A stretch of 64,000 nt of DNA from Octopus sinensis (Eukaryota). The notes beneath the pieces are model-generated. The model was not told the origin of the DNA. It did not search any database and worked only from the letters and a program-made list of their open reading frames with translations. Every line of letters starts with the position of its first letter. Positions within the stretch are counted from its first letter, which is position 1. The translations under genes were made by a program, and so were the position numbers. Shown here piece after piece: positions 5,186 through 54,055 of this stretch. The stretch spans positions 66,774,001 through 66,838,000 of the forward strand of contig NC_043007.1 in assembly GCF_006345805.1 (NCBI RefSeq), in the 5' to 3' direction.

Positions 5186-6535
5186 GTTATCGTCGTCATC
5201 ATCATCATCATTATCATCATCATCCCGTATCCGCGTCTCCTTCCTACTCCTACTCCTACTCCTGCTCCTCCTCCTCATCATCATCATCCTCGTCGTCGTC
5301 ATTATCATCATCATCATCATCATCATCATCCTTCCATTCATCATCATCCTCGCTATCATCTTCAGCATCATCATCATCATCATCATCATCTTCATCTTCA
5401 TCCTTATCCCCCTCTCCCTTCTCATCCTCATCATCATCCTTATCATCATCACCATCTTCATCATCCTCATCATCCTCATGATGATGATGATCATGATCAT
5501 GATCATCATCATCATCAGCCTCCTCCTCCTCATCATCATCATTATCGTCATCGTCATCGTCGTCGTCACCATCATTAGAGTCACCACTATGTCTTACTTC
5601 CACCGTTGTCACACACTAATTCACATACCAAGTCAAACAACCTCACTACCGTTAACTACTATCACCAATACTCATACAAGTTAACGGTAACAATTCCGTC
5701 TGTACATCCCTGCCATTACCAATGCTCTTTTTACTACCATCACAAATACTGTTACCACCATCGCCACCAATACCCCTGTACCAGTACCACTACTGCTACC
5801 ACTACCACCACCACCACGACCATCACCATCATCATCATCAACCTGCATCACTATAAAACACTACCATCAACAATACTATTATTACTGCATTTACCACCAC
5901 CACTACCACCTTCACCACCATCATCACTACCAGCACTAGTATTAATAATGTCATAATTACTACAATCACTACTACCACCACCACCACCCTCCACTACCAT
6001 CACAACCTTCCACTACCATCACCCCCTCCACCACCATCACCACCTTCAACTACCATCACAACCTTCCACCATTACCACCTTCCACCACCATCACCACCAC
6101 CATCACCACCACCACCATCACCACCTTCCACTACCATCACAACCTTCCACCATTACCACCTCCACTACCATCACCACCACCTACCACCACCACCATCACC
6201 ACCTTCCACTACCATCACAACCTTCCACCATTACCATCTTCCACCACCATCACCACCACCATCACCACCATCACCACCACCACCACCATCATTACCAAAG
6301 TTACTAATGTTATTACTAACGGCACCACCTCAATCACAGCTTCTCCCCACCGCCATCACCACCGCCATCACCACCGTCACAATCAGTTACCATCTCCACC
6401 ACCATCACCACACCAAAGTCACCAAATGTCGCCATTACTAACTGCACCACCTCAGTCACTATTTCCCGCCATCACAATCACTGCTCCCGCCACCATCACC
6501 ACCACCACCACCACCACCACTACTATTACCACTAT
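5090..6535 (+). repeat. (CAT)n then (CAC/ACC)n low-complexity tract with higher-order units such as CCACTACCATCACAACCTTCCACCATTACC
   Basis: Direct reading; source of spurious His/Ile/Met/Asp-rich ORFs. Confidence 0.9.
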
Positions 6536-15763: not shown

Positions 15764-17806
15764 ATGCCACGTGGATTTTTGGTGAAACGAACAAAAAATG
15801 CTGCGGCATTCTCTTACAGAGTTCGGAATTCCGATGATAGTGACTCTGATCACGAACACATTCAAACAAATTTCGGTTCTCCAGATTCTGGATATTCTCC
15901 AAGTCCGATATCATTGACTCCACGCGAGAGAGATCTCCATGCCTTTGACAGGGACCCGACACAAGGTACCACCCTGCCCTCGTCTCCGTTGCCAAGTTAT
16001 CCGTCCCCACATTACTTTTATGCCTTCGACAGACTGAGCGTTTCTAATTGTTCACCAGTCAACTTGACCCCTGTGAAAAACGAAACCGGAACTGCTGCTC
16101 TTTCCAGTCCTAACAAACGCAGGGGTCCGGCCGAAGCCGAGAAAAAGGTGAAAACGCCCAAGAAACCGAAAGCTTGTCGTAAAATTAATTTCGACGAGGA
16201 CAAGACGTCACCCGTATCGGGTACAATCATCAAAGACATCTCTGATACGGACGAGGAAGGACAAGTTGTGTGCGGAGACATTGACAGTGCCTTTAACTAT
16301 GTAGAGATCACGGCGGAAGCTAAGGCTGAGCTGGAAAAAATCGAGAACAAAATTGGCGACTATGTCTGTCAGCTATGCAAAGAATATTTTGACGATGCCT
16401 TCCAACTGGCTCGCCACAGATGCTCACGCATCGTGCATGTAGAATATCGCTGCCCTGAATGCGACAAAGTTTTCAACTGTCCAGCCAACCTCGCTTCGCA
16501 TCGGCGTTGGCACAAACCGAAAACCGCGTCCGACAAAAAGAACGTCCCCACTCACATACTGCCGGCCAACATCCCGTCGGTTGCTCTCAACAGTAACCAC
16601 AGCAACGGAACAAATGGAGATCCGATGGACGAATCCAGCGACAAATGTGACAGTCCACGAATGCTAACGTCACCTCCTGGCTCGCCGAACAACTACACAG
16701 CTTCCACACATCACCACCAGTACTTCAATTCGAACTCATCACCGTCTCCGTCGTCCGCTTCACCTCCAGCCGTCACCATCAACGACTGTCCGTCGTCCAC
16801 TGTCGAAGAAGGACAATTCCAGTGTGAGATATGTTTCAAAAGGTTCCGCCGTCAAGCCTACCTGAAGAAGCATATTCTTAACCATAACAATGACCGAGCC
16901 AAGCAACAACAACAACAACAACAGCCGCCACAACAACAACAACAACAGCAACAACAGTCAGAGCAGCACCTTTCATTGCAGCAACAACAACAAAGTGAAA
17001 CTAGTCAGCCCTCAACTCACAATCACTTACAGAACCAACCCACCGACTCGCCACCTCATAGTTATTTCCAACACAAACACCAACTCCATCAACACAACAA
17101 TCAAAACCTCACGCAAAACAACGGTAGCAGCAACAACAACAACAACAACGCTAACAATAACAACAGCGACATCAGCAGCAGCAATAACAACAACAACAAT
17201 AACAACAACAACAACAACAATGACAACACAGATTCCAATGGCAACAAAGAGCCGACTTCTTCGCTAAACAGCAATGTAAATACACAAAACGGTGCCTCGA
17301 GTAATAACAGTTCTAGTATGGTGGTCAACGAGAGTAGTAGTGAGAGTATGGACCCCACGACTAGCTGTAGTACTCCGGCTGCAACAAATGGTACCATCAC
17401 TAATGCTACAAGCATTGCAAGCAACGGTAGTAATAGTAGCCTCACGACCACTGACACAACAACCACCAACAGCAGCACCGACACCACTACCACCACCACC
17501 ACTACCAATACCAACACCACCACGACCGGCAACAGTAATAATAACAACAACAGCAACAACAGCAGCAGCAATGGTAACGGAACCACTGCCCACCTATCAT
17601 GCGACCACTGTAATAGCATTTTTACCACAAAAACGGCTCTCGAGAAGCACAGCCGGACGCACAGTGGCGAGGTTTTCACCTGTAAGTACTGCTCAAGTCG
17701 CTTCTATAGTTCTCCAGGTCTTACCAGACACATCAACAAATGCCATCCCTCCGAAAATAGACAGGTCATTCTTTTACAATTGACCCCAGTTAACCGACCT
17801 TGTTGA
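15764..17806 (+). CDS. INSM1: Insulinoma-associated (INSM1/IA-1, nerfin/EGL-46 family) SNAG-domain C2H2 zinc-finger transcriptional repressor, 680 aa, single-exon ORF
   Basis: N-terminal SNAG motif MPRGFLVKR; family motif RKINFDEDKTSPVSG; ZF1-2 YVCQLCKEYFDDAFQLARHRCSRIVHVEYRCPECDKVFNCPANLASHRRWHKP; ZF3 FQCEICFKRFRRQAYLKKH; ZF4 CDHC..HSRTH; ZF5 plus the C-terminus SPGLTRHINKCHPSENRQVILLQ typical of INSM proteins. The symbol marks the family, since invertebrate genes are co-orthologous to INSM1/2. Confidence 0.96.
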   Translation: MPRGFLVKRTKNAAAFSYRVRNSDDSDSDHEHIQTNFGSPDSGYSPSPISLTPRERDLHAFDRDPTQGTTLPSSPLPSYPSPHYFYAFDRLSVSNCSPVNLTPVKNETGTAALSSPNKRRGPAEAEKKVKTPKKPKACRKINFDEDKTSPVSGTIIKDISDTDEEGQVVCGDIDSAFNYVEITAEAKAELEKIENKIGDYVCQLCKEYFDDAFQLARHRCSRIVHVEYRCPECDKVFNCPANLASHRRWHKPKTASDKKNVPTHILPANIPSVALNSNHSNGTNGDPMDESSDKCDSPRMLTSPPGSPNNYTASTHHHQYFNSNSSPSPSSASPPAVTINDCPSSTVEEGQFQCEICFKRFRRQAYLKKHILNHNNDRAKQQQQQQQPPQQQQQQQQQSEQHLSLQQQQQSETSQPSTHNHLQNQPTDSPPHSYFQHKHQLHQHNNQNLTQNNGSSNNNNNNANNNNSDISSSNNNNNNNNNNNNNDNTDSNGNKEPTSSLNSNVNTQNGASSNNSSSMVVNESSSESMDPTTSCSTPAATNGTITNATSIASNGSNSSLTTTDTTTTNSSTDTTTTTTTTNTNTTTTGNSNNNNNSNNSSSNGNGTTAHLSCDHCNSIFTTKTALEKHSRTHSGEVFTCKYCSSRFYSSPGLTRHINKCHPSENRQVILLQLTPVNRPC

Positions 17807-29100: not shown

Positions 29101-30325
29101 CCAGGGTTGGACAAAATAATGGAAACACCTTAAAATTTCAAGCAAATTTATTTTAATATGGAGTAGGACCATCTTTGGCAGTAATTACAGCTTGAATTCT
29201 ACAAGATATGGAGTCGTATAAAGTTTGAATTGGTTTCGAAAGGAATTTTTGTCCATTCTTCAGCTAAAACAGTTTCCAGTTCTTGTAGTGATGATAGTGT
29301 AGAATATTTTCTAAAATGCACCATAAATGTTCAATAATATTGAGATCTGGGGACTGTGGTAGCCAGATAAGATGTTCAACTTCACTAGAATGTTCCTCGT
29401 GCCATTCAGTAACAACTTTAACTGTGTGAATTGGTGCATTATCATCCTGAAAGATTGCGTTTCCCTCCGGAAACAGTTCCGCAAACATAGGATGAATTTG
29501 ATCAGATAAAATACTTAAATAGTCTTAACTATTAATTCTGCCATGAAGGGAAACCATTGGACCGGCAGATTTCCAAGATATAGCCCCCACACACACTAAC
29601 TCGCCCCTAGATCATCACAGATCCTCCTCCATGTTTAACAGTTGGAGGAAGGCAGTCTGGGTTAAATGCTTCTTTTGGCTGTCTCCACACGTATACTCCG
29701 CTGGTGGTCAGAAATAAGGTAAAGGATAACTCGTCCGAGAAAATAACATTCTTCCACTGCTCTAGGGACCAATTCTGTAGGATTTTACTCCACTCTACAC
29801 GCTTTGCAACGTTTGTTTTTGAAAGTAGTGGTTTTCTGATTGCAGCTCCCTGGGTTCTCGAGGTAGTCATTAAGCTTTTCAGTAATTTTAGGAGCTGTAC
29901 TTTTGTGATCCTTTCTAACAATTCACGTAAGAGTCCGACGGTCCCTATCTGAAAGTTTTGGTTTTCTTCCGGAGTTTTGTTTCGACGAGGATGTTTTTCC
30001 CTCTTTCTCAAAGGCTCTCATTACTTTCGAGACAGTACTTCTTGATACACCAAAAATTTCGGCTGTTTTCGTTACGCTAGCACCTGCCATGCGAGCACTA
30101 ACAATTTGACCTCTTTGAAAGTCCGATAGATGTGTCATTTTAATGAATTTTGATTACCTTTCTTTTTCATGATATCTGAAAAGAAACTGTAATTTTAGCA
30201 AAACATATTAAGCAACACTTATAATAAATCAAAAAACATAAAAACAAACTTTTGACGGTTTTATAGATATTACAAAATTATGATGCTATGATGCTAGGTG
30301 TTTCCATTATTTTGTCCAGCCACTG
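29101..30325 (-). mobile_element. Tc1-family (DD34E-type) transposon with frameshifted transposase
   Basis: ~30-bp TIRs (..TGGACAAAATAATGGAAACACCT / AGGTGTTTCCATTATTTTGTCCA..) flanked by TA. ORF fragments MTHLSDFQRGQIV.., WKNVIFSDE, TVKHGGGSVM, FQDDNAPIH, PQSPDLNIIEHLW. Confidence 0.93.
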
Positions 30326-42179: not shown

Positions 42180-42281
42180 GTACAGGATTTGGCTGTACGT
42201 ATTTTAAAATTGCAACGATACAGATTAACATGGCCCCTGCGCAATGATAACACGCAAATTCGTGAAGCGTTCCATATTTTT
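42180..42281 (+). pseudogene. U6 snRNA pseudogene
   Basis: TAAAATTGCAACGATACAG..ATTAACATGGCCCCTGCGCAATGATAACACGCAAATTCGTGAAGCGTTCCATATTTTT matches U6. It has a 5-nt deletion in the ACAGAGA region and the AGC triad is changed to AAC. Confidence 0.9.
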
Positions 42282-45789: not shown

Positions 45790-45834
45790 CGTGCGCTGAT
45801 GACGGGTCAATACCCAGAAACTGCAGTCCGTGCG
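45790..45834 (+). ncRNA. Minimal type I hammerhead ribozyme with canonical core
   Basis: CGTGCG-CTGATGA-CGGGT-caat-ACCCA-GAAA-CTGCAG-TC-CGTGCG. Stem I has two GU pairs, stem II has a C-A mismatch at its first position, and stem III is palindromic. Confidence 0.75.

Positions 45835-51562: not shown

Positions 51563-51568
<6 letters not shown>
51357..51568 (+). mobile_element. Penelope-like terminal repeat fragment with degenerate hammerhead-like motif
   Basis: GTTT-CCGACGA-A-GAGC-tcc-GCTC-GAAA-CG-TT-TAAC at 51432-51466; between (TA)n tracts; related to 62463-62587. Confidence 0.5.
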
Positions 51569-51613
<45 letters not shown>

Positions 51614-51834
51614 GAAATATTAAAATTACTAAGTCTCTCTAAAAGAGATCACGGCAGCATTCTGGAAAATAAAGTTATCGCCATACTAATATGGATTCTT
51701 ATAAAAATAAGAATAAAGCTGTCCGCTTATTAGCTCCATGAGGCCATCGCCTTAAGTTAGCTATTTGATACCAAACTGTATCCATATAACCTTCGAACAA
51801 GGGAGGTCAGTCGCTCCACACTACTTGATCGACA

Positions 51835-51876
51835 GCTACAGACGCGTTTCGGGGTATTGCCCCTTTTCAATGTAGC
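51835..51876 (-). ncRNA. Minimal type I hammerhead ribozyme, U3:A8 core variant (array copy 1)
   Basis: Exact reverse complement of 52646-52687. Confidence 0.85.
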
Positions 51877-52197
51877 GTAGTCAGACCAGTAGGTGTCGCT
51901 TCCGACAATCTCTGTTCGAAGGTTTTATTTACCTAGTTTCAGTGGAATACATCCACTTGTTTTTCATAAATAGAAATATTAAAATTACTAAGTCTCTCTA
52001 AAAGAGATCACGGCAGCGTTCCTGGAAAATAATAGTTATCGCCATACTAATATGGCATTCTTATAAAAATAAGAATAAAGCTGTCCGCTTATTAGCTCCA
52101 TGAGGCCATCGCCTTAAGTTAGCTATTTGATACACAAACTGTATCCATATAACCTTCGAACAAGGGAGGTCAGTCGCTCCACACTACTTGATCGACA

Positions 52198-52239
52198 GCT
52201 ACAGACGCGTTTCGGGGTATTGCCCCTTTTCAATGTAGC
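52198..52239 (-). ncRNA. Minimal type I hammerhead ribozyme, U3:A8 core variant (array copy 2)
   Basis: Exact reverse complement of 52646-52687, 363 bp from copy 1. Confidence 0.85.
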
Positions 52240-52645
52240 GTAGTCAGACCAGTAGGTGTCGCTTCCGACAATCTCTGTTCGAAGGTTTTATTTACCTAGT
52301 TTCAGTGGAATACATCCACTTGTTTTCAATAATAGAAATATTAAAATTACTAAGTCTCTCTAAAAGAGATCACGGCAGCGTTCCTGGAAAATAATAGTTA
52401 TCGCCATACTAATATGGCATTCTTATAAAAATAAGAATAAAGCTGTCCGCTTATTAGCTCCATGAGGCCATCGCCTTTGGTTAGCTATTTGATACACAAA
52501 CTGTATCCATATAACCTTCTTTTAGAGAGACTTAGTAATTTTAATATTTCTATTATTGAAAACAAGTGGATGTATTCCATTGAAACTAGGTAAATAAAAC
52601 CTTCGAACAGAGATTGTCGGAAGCGACACCTACTGGTCTGACTAC

Positions 52646-52687
52646 GCTACATTGAAAAGGGGCAATACCCCGAAACGCGTCTGTAGC
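52646..52687 (+). ncRNA. Minimal type I hammerhead ribozyme, U3:A8 core variant
   Basis: GCTACA-TTGAAAA-GGGG-caata-CCCC-GAAA-CGCG-TC-TGTAGC gives a 6-bp stem I, 4-bp stem II, palindromic stem III and GUC cleavage triplet (cut after 52681). Confidence 0.85.
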
Positions 52688-52852
52688 TGTCGATCAAGTA
52701 GTGTGGAGCGACTGACCTCCCTTGTTCGAAGGTTATATGGATACAGTTTGTGTATCAAATAGCTAACTTAAGGCGATGGCCTCATGGAGCTAATAAGCGG
52801 ACAGCTTTATTCTTATTTTATAAGAATGCCATATTAGTATGGCGATAACTAT

Positions 52853-52886
<34 letters not shown>

Positions 52887-52896
52887 TATATATAAT

Positions 52897-52948
<52 letters not shown>

Positions 52949-53274
52949 ATATTATATATTATATAAAAGACAAAAACAGACCAGACCGACAGACAGACAG
53001 AAAGAAAGAAAAGAATTGAACTGCATATGTAACCATTATGTTCCGGTGATTTGAAGAGTTGTGTTTCTTTTGCATTAATTTGTGTATTGTATACGTATTG
53101 AGCATACATATTGATGCAAACAAATTCGTATAATTGTTTACACTCTGAAATTAAAATTATATGATGAAGTTTACGAAACACCGGTAACCATATGGAAGTC
53201 ATGAATAAATGCATCTGTCTTCACCACTCACATCTTCTGACTTTAGGATTAAGAGTAATTTTCACTGAAATACA

Positions 53275-53942
53275 AGCTTGGGCTGTAAAGTTCATAGACT
53301 GACTATGAAAGAATTATGCTTGAGCTGTGAAATTTTGTATGGTAAAATAACGTCTGACTGTTCAAAGAAGGCTTCAAATATAACTGTCTTCTGAAAATGG
53401 GACAAAATTTGGTATCGTAGTGTTATCAAGTACCCGCAGAAAAATGATTTAGGCCACAAGGACAGTTATGCTGTCTTGGTTGCTACATTAGATGAAGCTC
53501 TAAACTTTATCAACAGTACAAAAGTGGGCAACTGAATTTAGGAGGAGAAGGGAGTGTTTTGAAGATGACCCAAGATTTGCACGTTCTGCAACTACCACCA
53601 CTGAGGAAAACATTGATCGTGTTCACCACAAGGTGATGGATGATAAGTGATTGCCTATAAATCAAACAGCCAAAGCTATTAGCATATCCCGTGAGAGAGT
53701 TGAGAATATTCTGCACAATGAACTTGGCATGACGAAGGGTTCTGCTCGGGGGATACCACAACTTCTGACACCTGATCAAAAGCGCATCAGTCTGATAACA
53801 TCAAGGAAAAATCTGATATTGTTTGAGGCAGATCCAGCTGGTTTCCTTGAATGTTTTCTAAGACAGGCTCAAAGTCGGCTTCATCAATTTAAGCCAGAGA
53901 GAAAGAAATAATCTATGCAGGGGAAACACCCTTCCTTACCTG
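53275..53942 (+). mobile_element. Decayed mariner transposase, 5' half
   Basis: Remnants KWATEFRRRRECFEDDPR..TTEENIDRVH and ISISRERVENILHNELGMTKGSARGIPQLLTPDQK (WVPHEL-like motif), with stops and frameshifts. Confidence 0.8.
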
Positions 53943-54055
53943 TAGAGTGTTTCCAAAGATCCCAATATATTCCGGTTGAGAATGAAAAGGCGAGTGATTA
54001 GAGAGTTTGGTAAGTATGAAAGCTAGCTTTGTCTATCTGTCTGATTATCTGTCTG

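What the first reader, a model, noticed from the sequence alone, without database searches (positions are those of the whole stretch)
52646..52687. Hammerhead core with compensatory U3:A8 instead of C3:G8
Seen: the core reads UUGAAAA rather than CUGANGA in all three copies, while G5, A6, A9, G12-A13-A14-A15.1, G10.1:C11.1 and the GUC site are intact. Known: positions 3 and 8 form a Watson-Crick pair in the active fold, and U3:A8 is an uncommon natural variant that retains activity. Inferred: the double change argues for selection on catalysis, and standard CUGANGA pattern searches would miss this family. Stem I may extend through ACTAC (52641-45) pairing with GTAGT (52698-702) across a bulge.
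Basis: partly seen in the sequence, partly recalled or inferred. Interest (0 to 1): 0.8.

Follow-up and report, generated by a model that had tools for sequence, protein, structure and literature searches.

The report
Variant hammerhead ribozyme in jumping repeat
A 362-base repeat, whose ribozyme motif occurs over 1,600 times in this animal genome, carries a predicted self-cutting RNA with an uncommon but already described U-A core pair, and the ends of its copies hint that the cut RNA is likely what a Penelope-type retrotransposon enzyme pastes back into the genome.

Summary
The core observation holds: all three window copies read UUGAAAA in a type I hammerhead. It sits in a 362-bp ORF-less repeat (non-LTR retrozyme type). 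One pattern finds 1,666 U3:A8 motifs in the genome and 23 C3:G8 motifs, all in other families. Mismatched 3/8 copies are about 1% or fewer and sporadic. U3:A8 is kept in subfamilies about 20% apart, while N7, the stems and the stem III palindrome change in pairing-preserving ways. That supports selection on a working ribozyme, although no C3:G8 ancestor was found. The proposed ACTAC:GTAGT extension is not supported; stem I closes through GAC:GUC around a UAC/U loop. U3:A8 is already in print, including about 1,300 Penelope-associated motifs in Schistosoma, so the variant itself is not new. Added here: insertions have Penelope hallmarks (back-to-back truncated arms, a 62-nt tail, (TA)n targets, rare fusions to Penelope ORFs). 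Their 5' junctions also step up at the predicted cleavage site, which suggests, without proving it, that cleaved RNA is a template in vivo. Verdict: new member of a known kind.

The parts
51610..52855 (.). Whole insertion: two back-to-back 5'-truncated arms of a 362-bp ORF-less repeat (family A, retrozyme type)
   Evidence: longest stop-free frame 55 aa, unit GC 0.40
51610..52519 (-). Minus arm: partial unit (unit positions 172-360) plus two near-full units; ends at the long 3' end (unit position ~360) against (TA)n
52518..52855 (+). Plus arm: unit positions 324-362 then 1-300; ends at the short 3' end, about 62 nt before the long one (Penelope-type tail); 2-nt microhomology at the inversion junction
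52646..52687 (+). Type I hammerhead, copy 1: stem I 52646-51/52682-87; U3 52652, A8 52657; stem II 52659-71; palindrome ACGCGU 52675-80; predicted cleavage after 52681
52640..52691 (+). Stem I extension: closing helix GAC 52640-42 with GUC 52689-91, internal loop UAC 52643-45 opposite U 52688 (likely the loop I-loop II tertiary site, inferred); continues as a long irregular helix
52198..52239 (-). Hammerhead copy 2, identical 42 nt
51835..51876 (-). Hammerhead copy 3, identical 42 nt; tandem with copy 2, so the two can form a double hammerhead (predicted)
51567..51609 (.). (TA)n microsatellite, left target flank
52853..52959 (.). (TA)n microsatellite, right target flank

Best explanation
The motif is a type I hammerhead with a U3:A8 core pair, predicted to self-cleave (likely best as a dimer), inside a non-autonomous 362-bp retrozyme that is likely copied and inserted by Penelope-like (PLE) enzymes working in trans. 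Shown: the sequence, the copy numbers, conservation of the core with covarying stems, the PLE-type insertion layout, and PLE ORFs in the genome. Inferred: tandem units are transcribed; neighbouring copies pair their ACGCGU palindromes to make a 6-bp stem III and cut after C17; a PLE GIY-YIG/RT protein nicks (TA)n DNA and primes reverse transcription at two internal sites (unit ~300 and ~360), giving two inverted, 5'-truncated arms. U3:A8 is an old, fixed, functionally tolerated state of this lineage rather than a recent compensatory event.
For: 1,666 U3:A8 matches with 0 in the reversed control. 27 non-U3 and 4 non-A8 matches, mostly indels, junctions or other families. Core unchanged across subfamilies (0 of 12 core columns vary against 27% elsewhere, P~0.02). 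The 17-pair structure is 98.2% paired over 16 copies, with 7 pairs changed on both sides and 0 of 500 shuffles as high in percent paired. The palindrome centre reads GC, UA or AU and is always self-complementary. In 4 public runs under 4 organism labels no variant at 3 or 8 reached 2%. 85 of 101 two-arm loci have one long and one short 3' end, and 224 of 240 such ends abut TA repeats; the same layout is described for PLEs (PMC8557442, PMC11167929). Family A is fused to a PLE ORF in L111, and family B in L055/L056. The double hammerhead is the minimum-energy fold of two tandem window units, with inter-copy pair probability 0.67-0.80.
Against: No cleavage assay and no run on record as RNA. The dimer fold disappears (probability 0) when the whole minus arm is folded, so it depends on transcript limits. 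The unit has no detectable homology to the flanks of the two PLE families examined, so the partner enzyme is not identified. Only 1 of about 148 family A loci is fused to a PLE ORF. Core invariance against the old subfamily alone is not significant (P=0.08). Pattern-based sampling fixes several core letters by design. In vitro, hammerhead cleavage was dispensable for insertion by an anole PLE (PMC11167929).
Confidence: 0.8

Rival explanations
1. The repeat is mobilised by PLE enzymes, but its hammerhead is weak or inactive; U3:A8 was inherited from one founder, and conservation reflects an RNA shape needed for protein binding or stability, not catalysis.
For: One founder explains a uniform U3:A8. 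Cleavage was not needed for PLE insertion in vitro, and PLE hammerheads cleave poorly. Many insertions contain uncut multimers of up to 10 units (L202).
Against: The unpaired catalytic residues are fixed while N7 takes A, C or U and the stems covary. 5' junctions are scarce just upstream of the cleavage site and common just downstream.
Confidence: 0.12
2. The unit is the detached pseudo-LTR of an autonomous PLE still present in the genome, not an independent retrozyme.
For: It has a PLE-type tail and inverted layout. A preprint reports that retrozymes derive from pLTRs (10.64898/2026.07.22.740005). Only 98 of 7,549 candidate PLE places were scored.
Against: None of 50 fetched PLE loci (L131-L180, partly overlapping, two families) has the unit as a flank, apart from the L111 chimera and an older copy in L172 lying 2.7 kb from the ORF in the opposite orientation. 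About 148 family A loci show units joined head to tail; long ORFs were screened only in loci up to L130.
Confidence: 0.15
3. The repeat spreads at DNA level (satellite amplification or a MITE-like element, given the terminal inverted arms), and the hammerhead is incidental.
For: The insertion looks like a long inverted repeat; tandem arrays exist.
Against: Inner breakpoints differ at nearly every locus, the two outer ends are offset by about 62 nt, and copies are dispersed on nearly all large contigs. RNA structure covaries.
Confidence: 0.03

Closest known systems
Non-LTR retrozymes of animals (coral, mussel, axolotl; PMC7229834)
   Same: Type I hammerhead in dispersed tandem repeats of 150-450 bp (here 362; mussel 350-390), GC under 50%, no ORF, weak palindromic helix III that favours dimers.
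   Different: U3:A8 core throughout the family. PLE-type inverted arms, tail and (TA)n targeting are documented here; I did not see these stated for retrozymes in the parts read. Circular RNA not shown here.
PLE-associated hammerheads, including the U3-A8 variant of Schistosoma mansoni (about 1,300 hits; PMC4209133)
   Same: Same U3-A8 covariation, in a PLE-linked setting, with predicted dimeric activity.
   Different: Those are minimal motifs (helix II 7-8 bp, helix I 4-5 bp, poorly defined loop 1, mostly single). This one has canonical geometry (helix I 6 bp, helix II 4 bp, defined internal loop) and sits in an ORF-less tandem unit.
Natural U3:A8 hammerheads (Perreault et al. 2011, PMC3088659)
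   Same: Same pair swap, described as natural and as active in vitro (citing Przybilski and Hammann 2007, which I could not read).
   Different: Reported as several scattered examples; here it defines a high-copy lineage with subfamilies.
EN+ Penelope-like elements (Neptune-type; anole Poseidon PAc, PMC11167929; PMC8557442)
   Same: Partial tandems, adjacent inverted 5'-truncated copy, tail on one end, AT-rich or microsatellite targets.
   Different: No ORF; tail about 62 nt against 30-40 bp described; no sequence homology to the two PLE families examined.

Membership tests
Type I hammerhead ribozyme | Conserved core (3:8 pair, U4 G5 A6 A9, G12 A13 A14, A15.1:U16.1, H17) | tested here: met
   3:8 is U:A, a described covariant
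Type I hammerhead ribozyme | Three helices around the core with covariation | tested here: met
   98.2% paired, 7 of 17 pairs changed on both sides; helix III drawn as the palindrome (dimer form)
Type I hammerhead ribozyme | Loop I-loop II tertiary contact | tested here: inconclusive
   U-R-Y bulge opposite U and a CAAUA/CAAAUA loop recur in families A, B and C; likeness to the Schistosoma contact is recalled, not tested
Type I hammerhead ribozyme | Site-specific self-cleavage | not testable with these tools
   indirect only: step in 5' junctions at the site
Type I hammerhead ribozyme | Match to an Rfam hammerhead model | tested here: not met
   uninformative, because C3:G8 families B, C and D also give no hit
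Non-LTR retrozyme | Tandem 150-450 bp units, each with a type I hammerhead, GC under 50%, no ORF | tested here: met
   362 bp, GC 0.40, longest frame 55 aa; arrays up to 10 units
Non-LTR retrozyme | No LTR, PBS or PPT | not tested
   no LTR-type layout in the loci mapped; PBS and PPT not searched
Non-LTR retrozyme | Expressed as linear and circular monomer RNA | not testable with these tools
   only contigs of runs guessed to be RNA; the end-to-start joint in X2 and X7 fits tandem DNA as well as a circle
Non-autonomous PLE derivative | PLE insertion signature (inverted truncated copy, tail, microsatellite target) | tested here: met
   85 of 101 two-arm loci long+short; 224 of 240 ends abut TA
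Non-autonomous PLE derivative | Homology to the pLTR of an autonomous PLE | tested here: not met
   for the two PLE families examined only; other families not surveyed

The most novel reading that the evidence does not exclude
The genomic copies record ribozyme action in vivo: RNA cut by this U3:A8 hammerhead is itself a template for a Penelope enzyme acting in trans, leaving 5' junctions that start at the cleavage site. That would be fossil evidence that retrozyme/PLE hammerheads cleave in the germ line and that retrozymes parasitise PLE enzymes without sharing their pLTR sequence.
Probability: 0.45. Interest if true: 0.6.

Novelty: new member of a known kind. Interest (0 to 1): 0.36.

Why it matters
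The U3:A8 pair itself is known, so the headline claim is not new. The family is still a useful natural experiment: more than 1,600 near-identical motifs plus older subfamilies show which positions can drift. It also touches an open point. Whether hammerhead cleavage matters in Penelope and retrozyme transposition is unsettled: one in vitro study found it dispensable and saw no RNA ends at the site. The step in 5' junctions here, and the intact PLE ORFs in the same genome (1,042 and 1,044 codons stop to stop), make that directly testable.

Tried and rejected
Rfam: no hammerhead hit at gathering or E<=10 and none for sister families, so it was not used as evidence. 'A3:A8 subfamily': 19 of the 27 non-U3 matches read A3; of the 14 fetched, 12 are one-T deletions and 2 are junctions, with intact neighbours where present (read by eye). 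Rejected as a subfamily; 5 were not fetched. ACTAC:GTAGT extension rejected; the first energy figure for it came from a mis-set bracket string and was discarded. Exact-extension junction calling was broken by subfamily SNPs and replaced. A search for a C3:G8 ancestor in the lineage found none. A search for a PLE with this unit as pLTR found none in two families. Controls for the junction step in family C and the old subfamily were too few and too biased to read (1 family C arm starts at -1; no peak among 52 old-subfamily ends). Expression: no RNA holder listed on record; contigs cannot show ends or strand. Przybilski and Hammann 2007 is not held. Earlier findings: nothing returned. Paper supplements were not read and may list cephalopod or U3-A8 families.

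Full report
Observation. At 52646-52687 the plus strand reads GCUACA, UUGAAAA, GGGG-CAAUA-CCCC, GAAA, CGCGUC, UGUAGC. This is a type I hammerhead: 6-bp stem I, core with U3 (52652) and A8 (52657), 4-bp stem II, palindromic stem III ACGCGU, and a GUC site with predicted cleavage after 52681. Two more copies lie on the minus strand and are identical over 42 nt. My scanner's strict filter passes only these three, and 0 of 20 shuffled windows gave a strict hit. The 131-nt context folds with z -5.35. Rfam gives no hammerhead hit, but it also misses C3:G8 families from the same genome.

What it sits in. The motif belongs to a 362-bp unit (GC 0.40; longest frame in the insertion 55 aa). The insertion 51610-52855 has two back-to-back arms between (TA)n tracts. 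The window is G000:C11, in a 2.7-Gb animal genome; the features recall an octopod, from memory and untested. I mapped 273 arms in 148 loci after dropping 6 duplicate loci. Inner 5' ends vary. Outer 3' ends fall at unit positions about 297-304 or 353-362. 85 of 101 two-arm loci have one end of each kind, and 224 of 240 such ends abut TA repeats. An inverted truncated copy, a tail on one end and microsatellite targets are described PLE hallmarks (PMC8557442, passages). In an anole PLE the tail reflects two internal priming sites (PMC11167929, passages). Two PLE families with a C-terminal GIY-YIG, a Cys linker and open frames of 1,042 and 1,044 codons are present; I call them Neptune-type from the linker motif, without a tree. 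Family A is directly fused to a truncated PLE1 ORF in L111. The C3:G8 family B is fused to PLE2 in L055 and L056, which share one junction and are probably one event. The unit is not homologous to the flanks of either PLE family, so mobilisation in trans is inferred and the partner is not identified.

The 3/8 table. With one generic pattern (4-bp stem II, CAAUA loop): U3:A8 1,666 (the 100 listed are all family A); C3:G8 23, of which 21 are family B and 2 a further family D; non-U3 with A8 27; U3 with non-A8 4. Of the 27, 19 read A3; of 14 fetched, 12 are one-T deletions and 2 are junctions. 8 read C3: one is a family B G8A copy, two are junction artefacts and five are point changes (read by eye). 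Post-insertion mutations are neutral, so this alone does not prove selection.

Selection. Subfamilies differ from the window unit by up to about 20% (282 of 355 aligned bases identical for an old subfamily). In 24 older hammerhead-spanning segments, position 3 is U in 20 (C in 2 from one locus, G in 1, deleted in 1), and position 8 is A in 25 of 25. None of 12 core columns differs between subfamilies, against 27% of other columns (P about 0.02; against the old subfamily alone 19%, P 0.08; single natural copies stood for the young subfamilies). The changes inside the ribozyme fall at N7 (A, C, U), in the bulge or loop, or keep pairing. Over 16 copies chosen by me, the 17-pair structure is 98.2% paired with 7 pairs changed on both sides; slid controls give 28-54%. 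The shuffle control ignores relatedness. The stem III centre is GC, UA or AU and always palindromic. In four public runs under four organism labels, the only variants at 2% or more were at 52632, 52634, 52641, 52644, 52649, 52690, 52693 and 52694, plus a 1-nt deletion at 52637; none fell in the core (one run may be the source of the assembly). No C3:G8 member of the lineage was found, and family B shows no clear homology outside the ribozyme (z 1.0-2.8). 'Compensatory' is therefore true relative to the consensus, not an event seen here.

Stem I extension. In 9 young haplotypes both registers pair. The GAC:GUC register is favoured by 14 kcal/mol and covaries AU/GC in 5 versus 11 of 16 copies. 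ACTAC:GTAGT drops to 70% paired once older copies are included. Families B and C show the same U-R-Y bulge opposite U.

Mechanism. A single copy has no stable stem III in the fold model (the model forbids 2-nt loops). Two tandem window units fold as a double hammerhead with a 6-bp inter-copy palindrome helix (probability 0.67-0.80), but not when the whole minus arm is folded. Dimer cleavage of such motifs is described (PMC4209133, parts 1-2 of 4; PMC7229834, parts 2-3 of 6).

Junction step. The cleavage product would start at unit position 126. Among 255 arm 5' ends, 13 lie at 124-128 (3.6 expected if uniform) and none at 118-123; positions 105-123 hold 5 and 124-143 hold 30 (these windows were chosen after seeing the data). 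Allowing for microhomology, 6 of 182 clean junction ends include 126 against 1.9 expected (p about 0.01), but 15 of 339 positions are as high, with other peaks near 27-33, 162-176, 267-277 and 317-328. A genome-wide pattern gave 102 matches, 100 listed. After removing indels and duplicates by eye, 14 start at 119-125 and 46 at 126-132. A script on 70 of these loci (the first 30, plus 40 I chose, mostly with starts up to 131) classed 59 as junctions: none started at 119-120, 12 ranges include 126, and 8 lie wholly at or before 125. The two samples overlap in a few loci. So there is a step near the site, but it is not nucleotide-sharp, and stalling in the long stem is an alternative. I rate it suggestive.

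Known context. U3:A8 covariation in nature is reported in PMC3088659 (section 8), and about 1,300 U3-A8 motifs linked to PLEs in Schistosoma in PMC4209133. Retrozymes as PLE derivatives are argued in bioRxiv 10.64898/2026.07.22.740005 (part 1 of 5 and passages). Six literature searches listed no paper describing this family or a junction step at the cleavage site. Most subscription papers and all supplements were not seen.

Verdict. The motif is real, conserved and probably functional. It is a new member of a known kind, with a known core variant. Interest is 0.36, carried mainly by the testable hint of in vivo cleavage and PLE-dependent spread.

Noticed in passing
window 45790-45834 (+): A second, older hammerhead repeat (family C, C3:G8 in 18 of 18 matches in fetched loci; palindrome ACUGCAGU; extra C after A9 and A before G12 or a C-A mismatch). 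3,360 candidates in the genome; 66-70% similar to family B.
   Followed up: partly
L051-L064 (e.g. L051 3905-4623): Family B: 359-bp C3:G8 retrozyme, 21 motif matches, same CAAUA loop, tandem/inverted layout and ~42-nt tail; fused to a PLE2 ORF in L055 and L056.
   Followed up: partly
L168 ~6359-6414 (+), and 11 other PLE2 loci (12 in all): The 3' repeat of the autonomous PLE2 carries a conserved minimal hammerhead-like motif with core CUGAUGC (C in place of A9) and a 5-bp stem II; possibly another core variant, untested.
   Followed up: no
L161 3452-6577 (-); L168 2710-5841 (+): Open PLE frames of 1,042 and 1,044 codons with RT (YVDD), Cys linker and GIY-YIG; about 55% identical to each other; many copies, recently active. 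No canonical hammerhead was found near PLE1.
   Followed up: partly
L065, L066: Family D hammerhead (C3:G8, stem II GGUC/GACU, palindrome ACAUGU), few matches; one copy elsewhere has U3:G8.
   Followed up: no
window 15764-17806 (+): Intronless C2H2 zinc-finger gene starting MPRGFLVKR (SNAG-type start; resembles INSM1/Nerfin, name recalled), about 34 kb from the insertion.
   Followed up: partly
window 42180-42281 (+): U6 snRNA copy with a 5-nt deletion in the ACAGAGA region; likely a pseudogene.
   Followed up: no
window ~53400-54000 and 29607-30017: Degenerate Tc1/mariner-like transposase fragments (by eye, from recall).
   Followed up: no
family A, unit positions 317-328 and 162-176: Other hot spots of 5' truncation, near predicted hairpin bases; possibly reverse-transcriptase stalling sites.
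   Followed up: no
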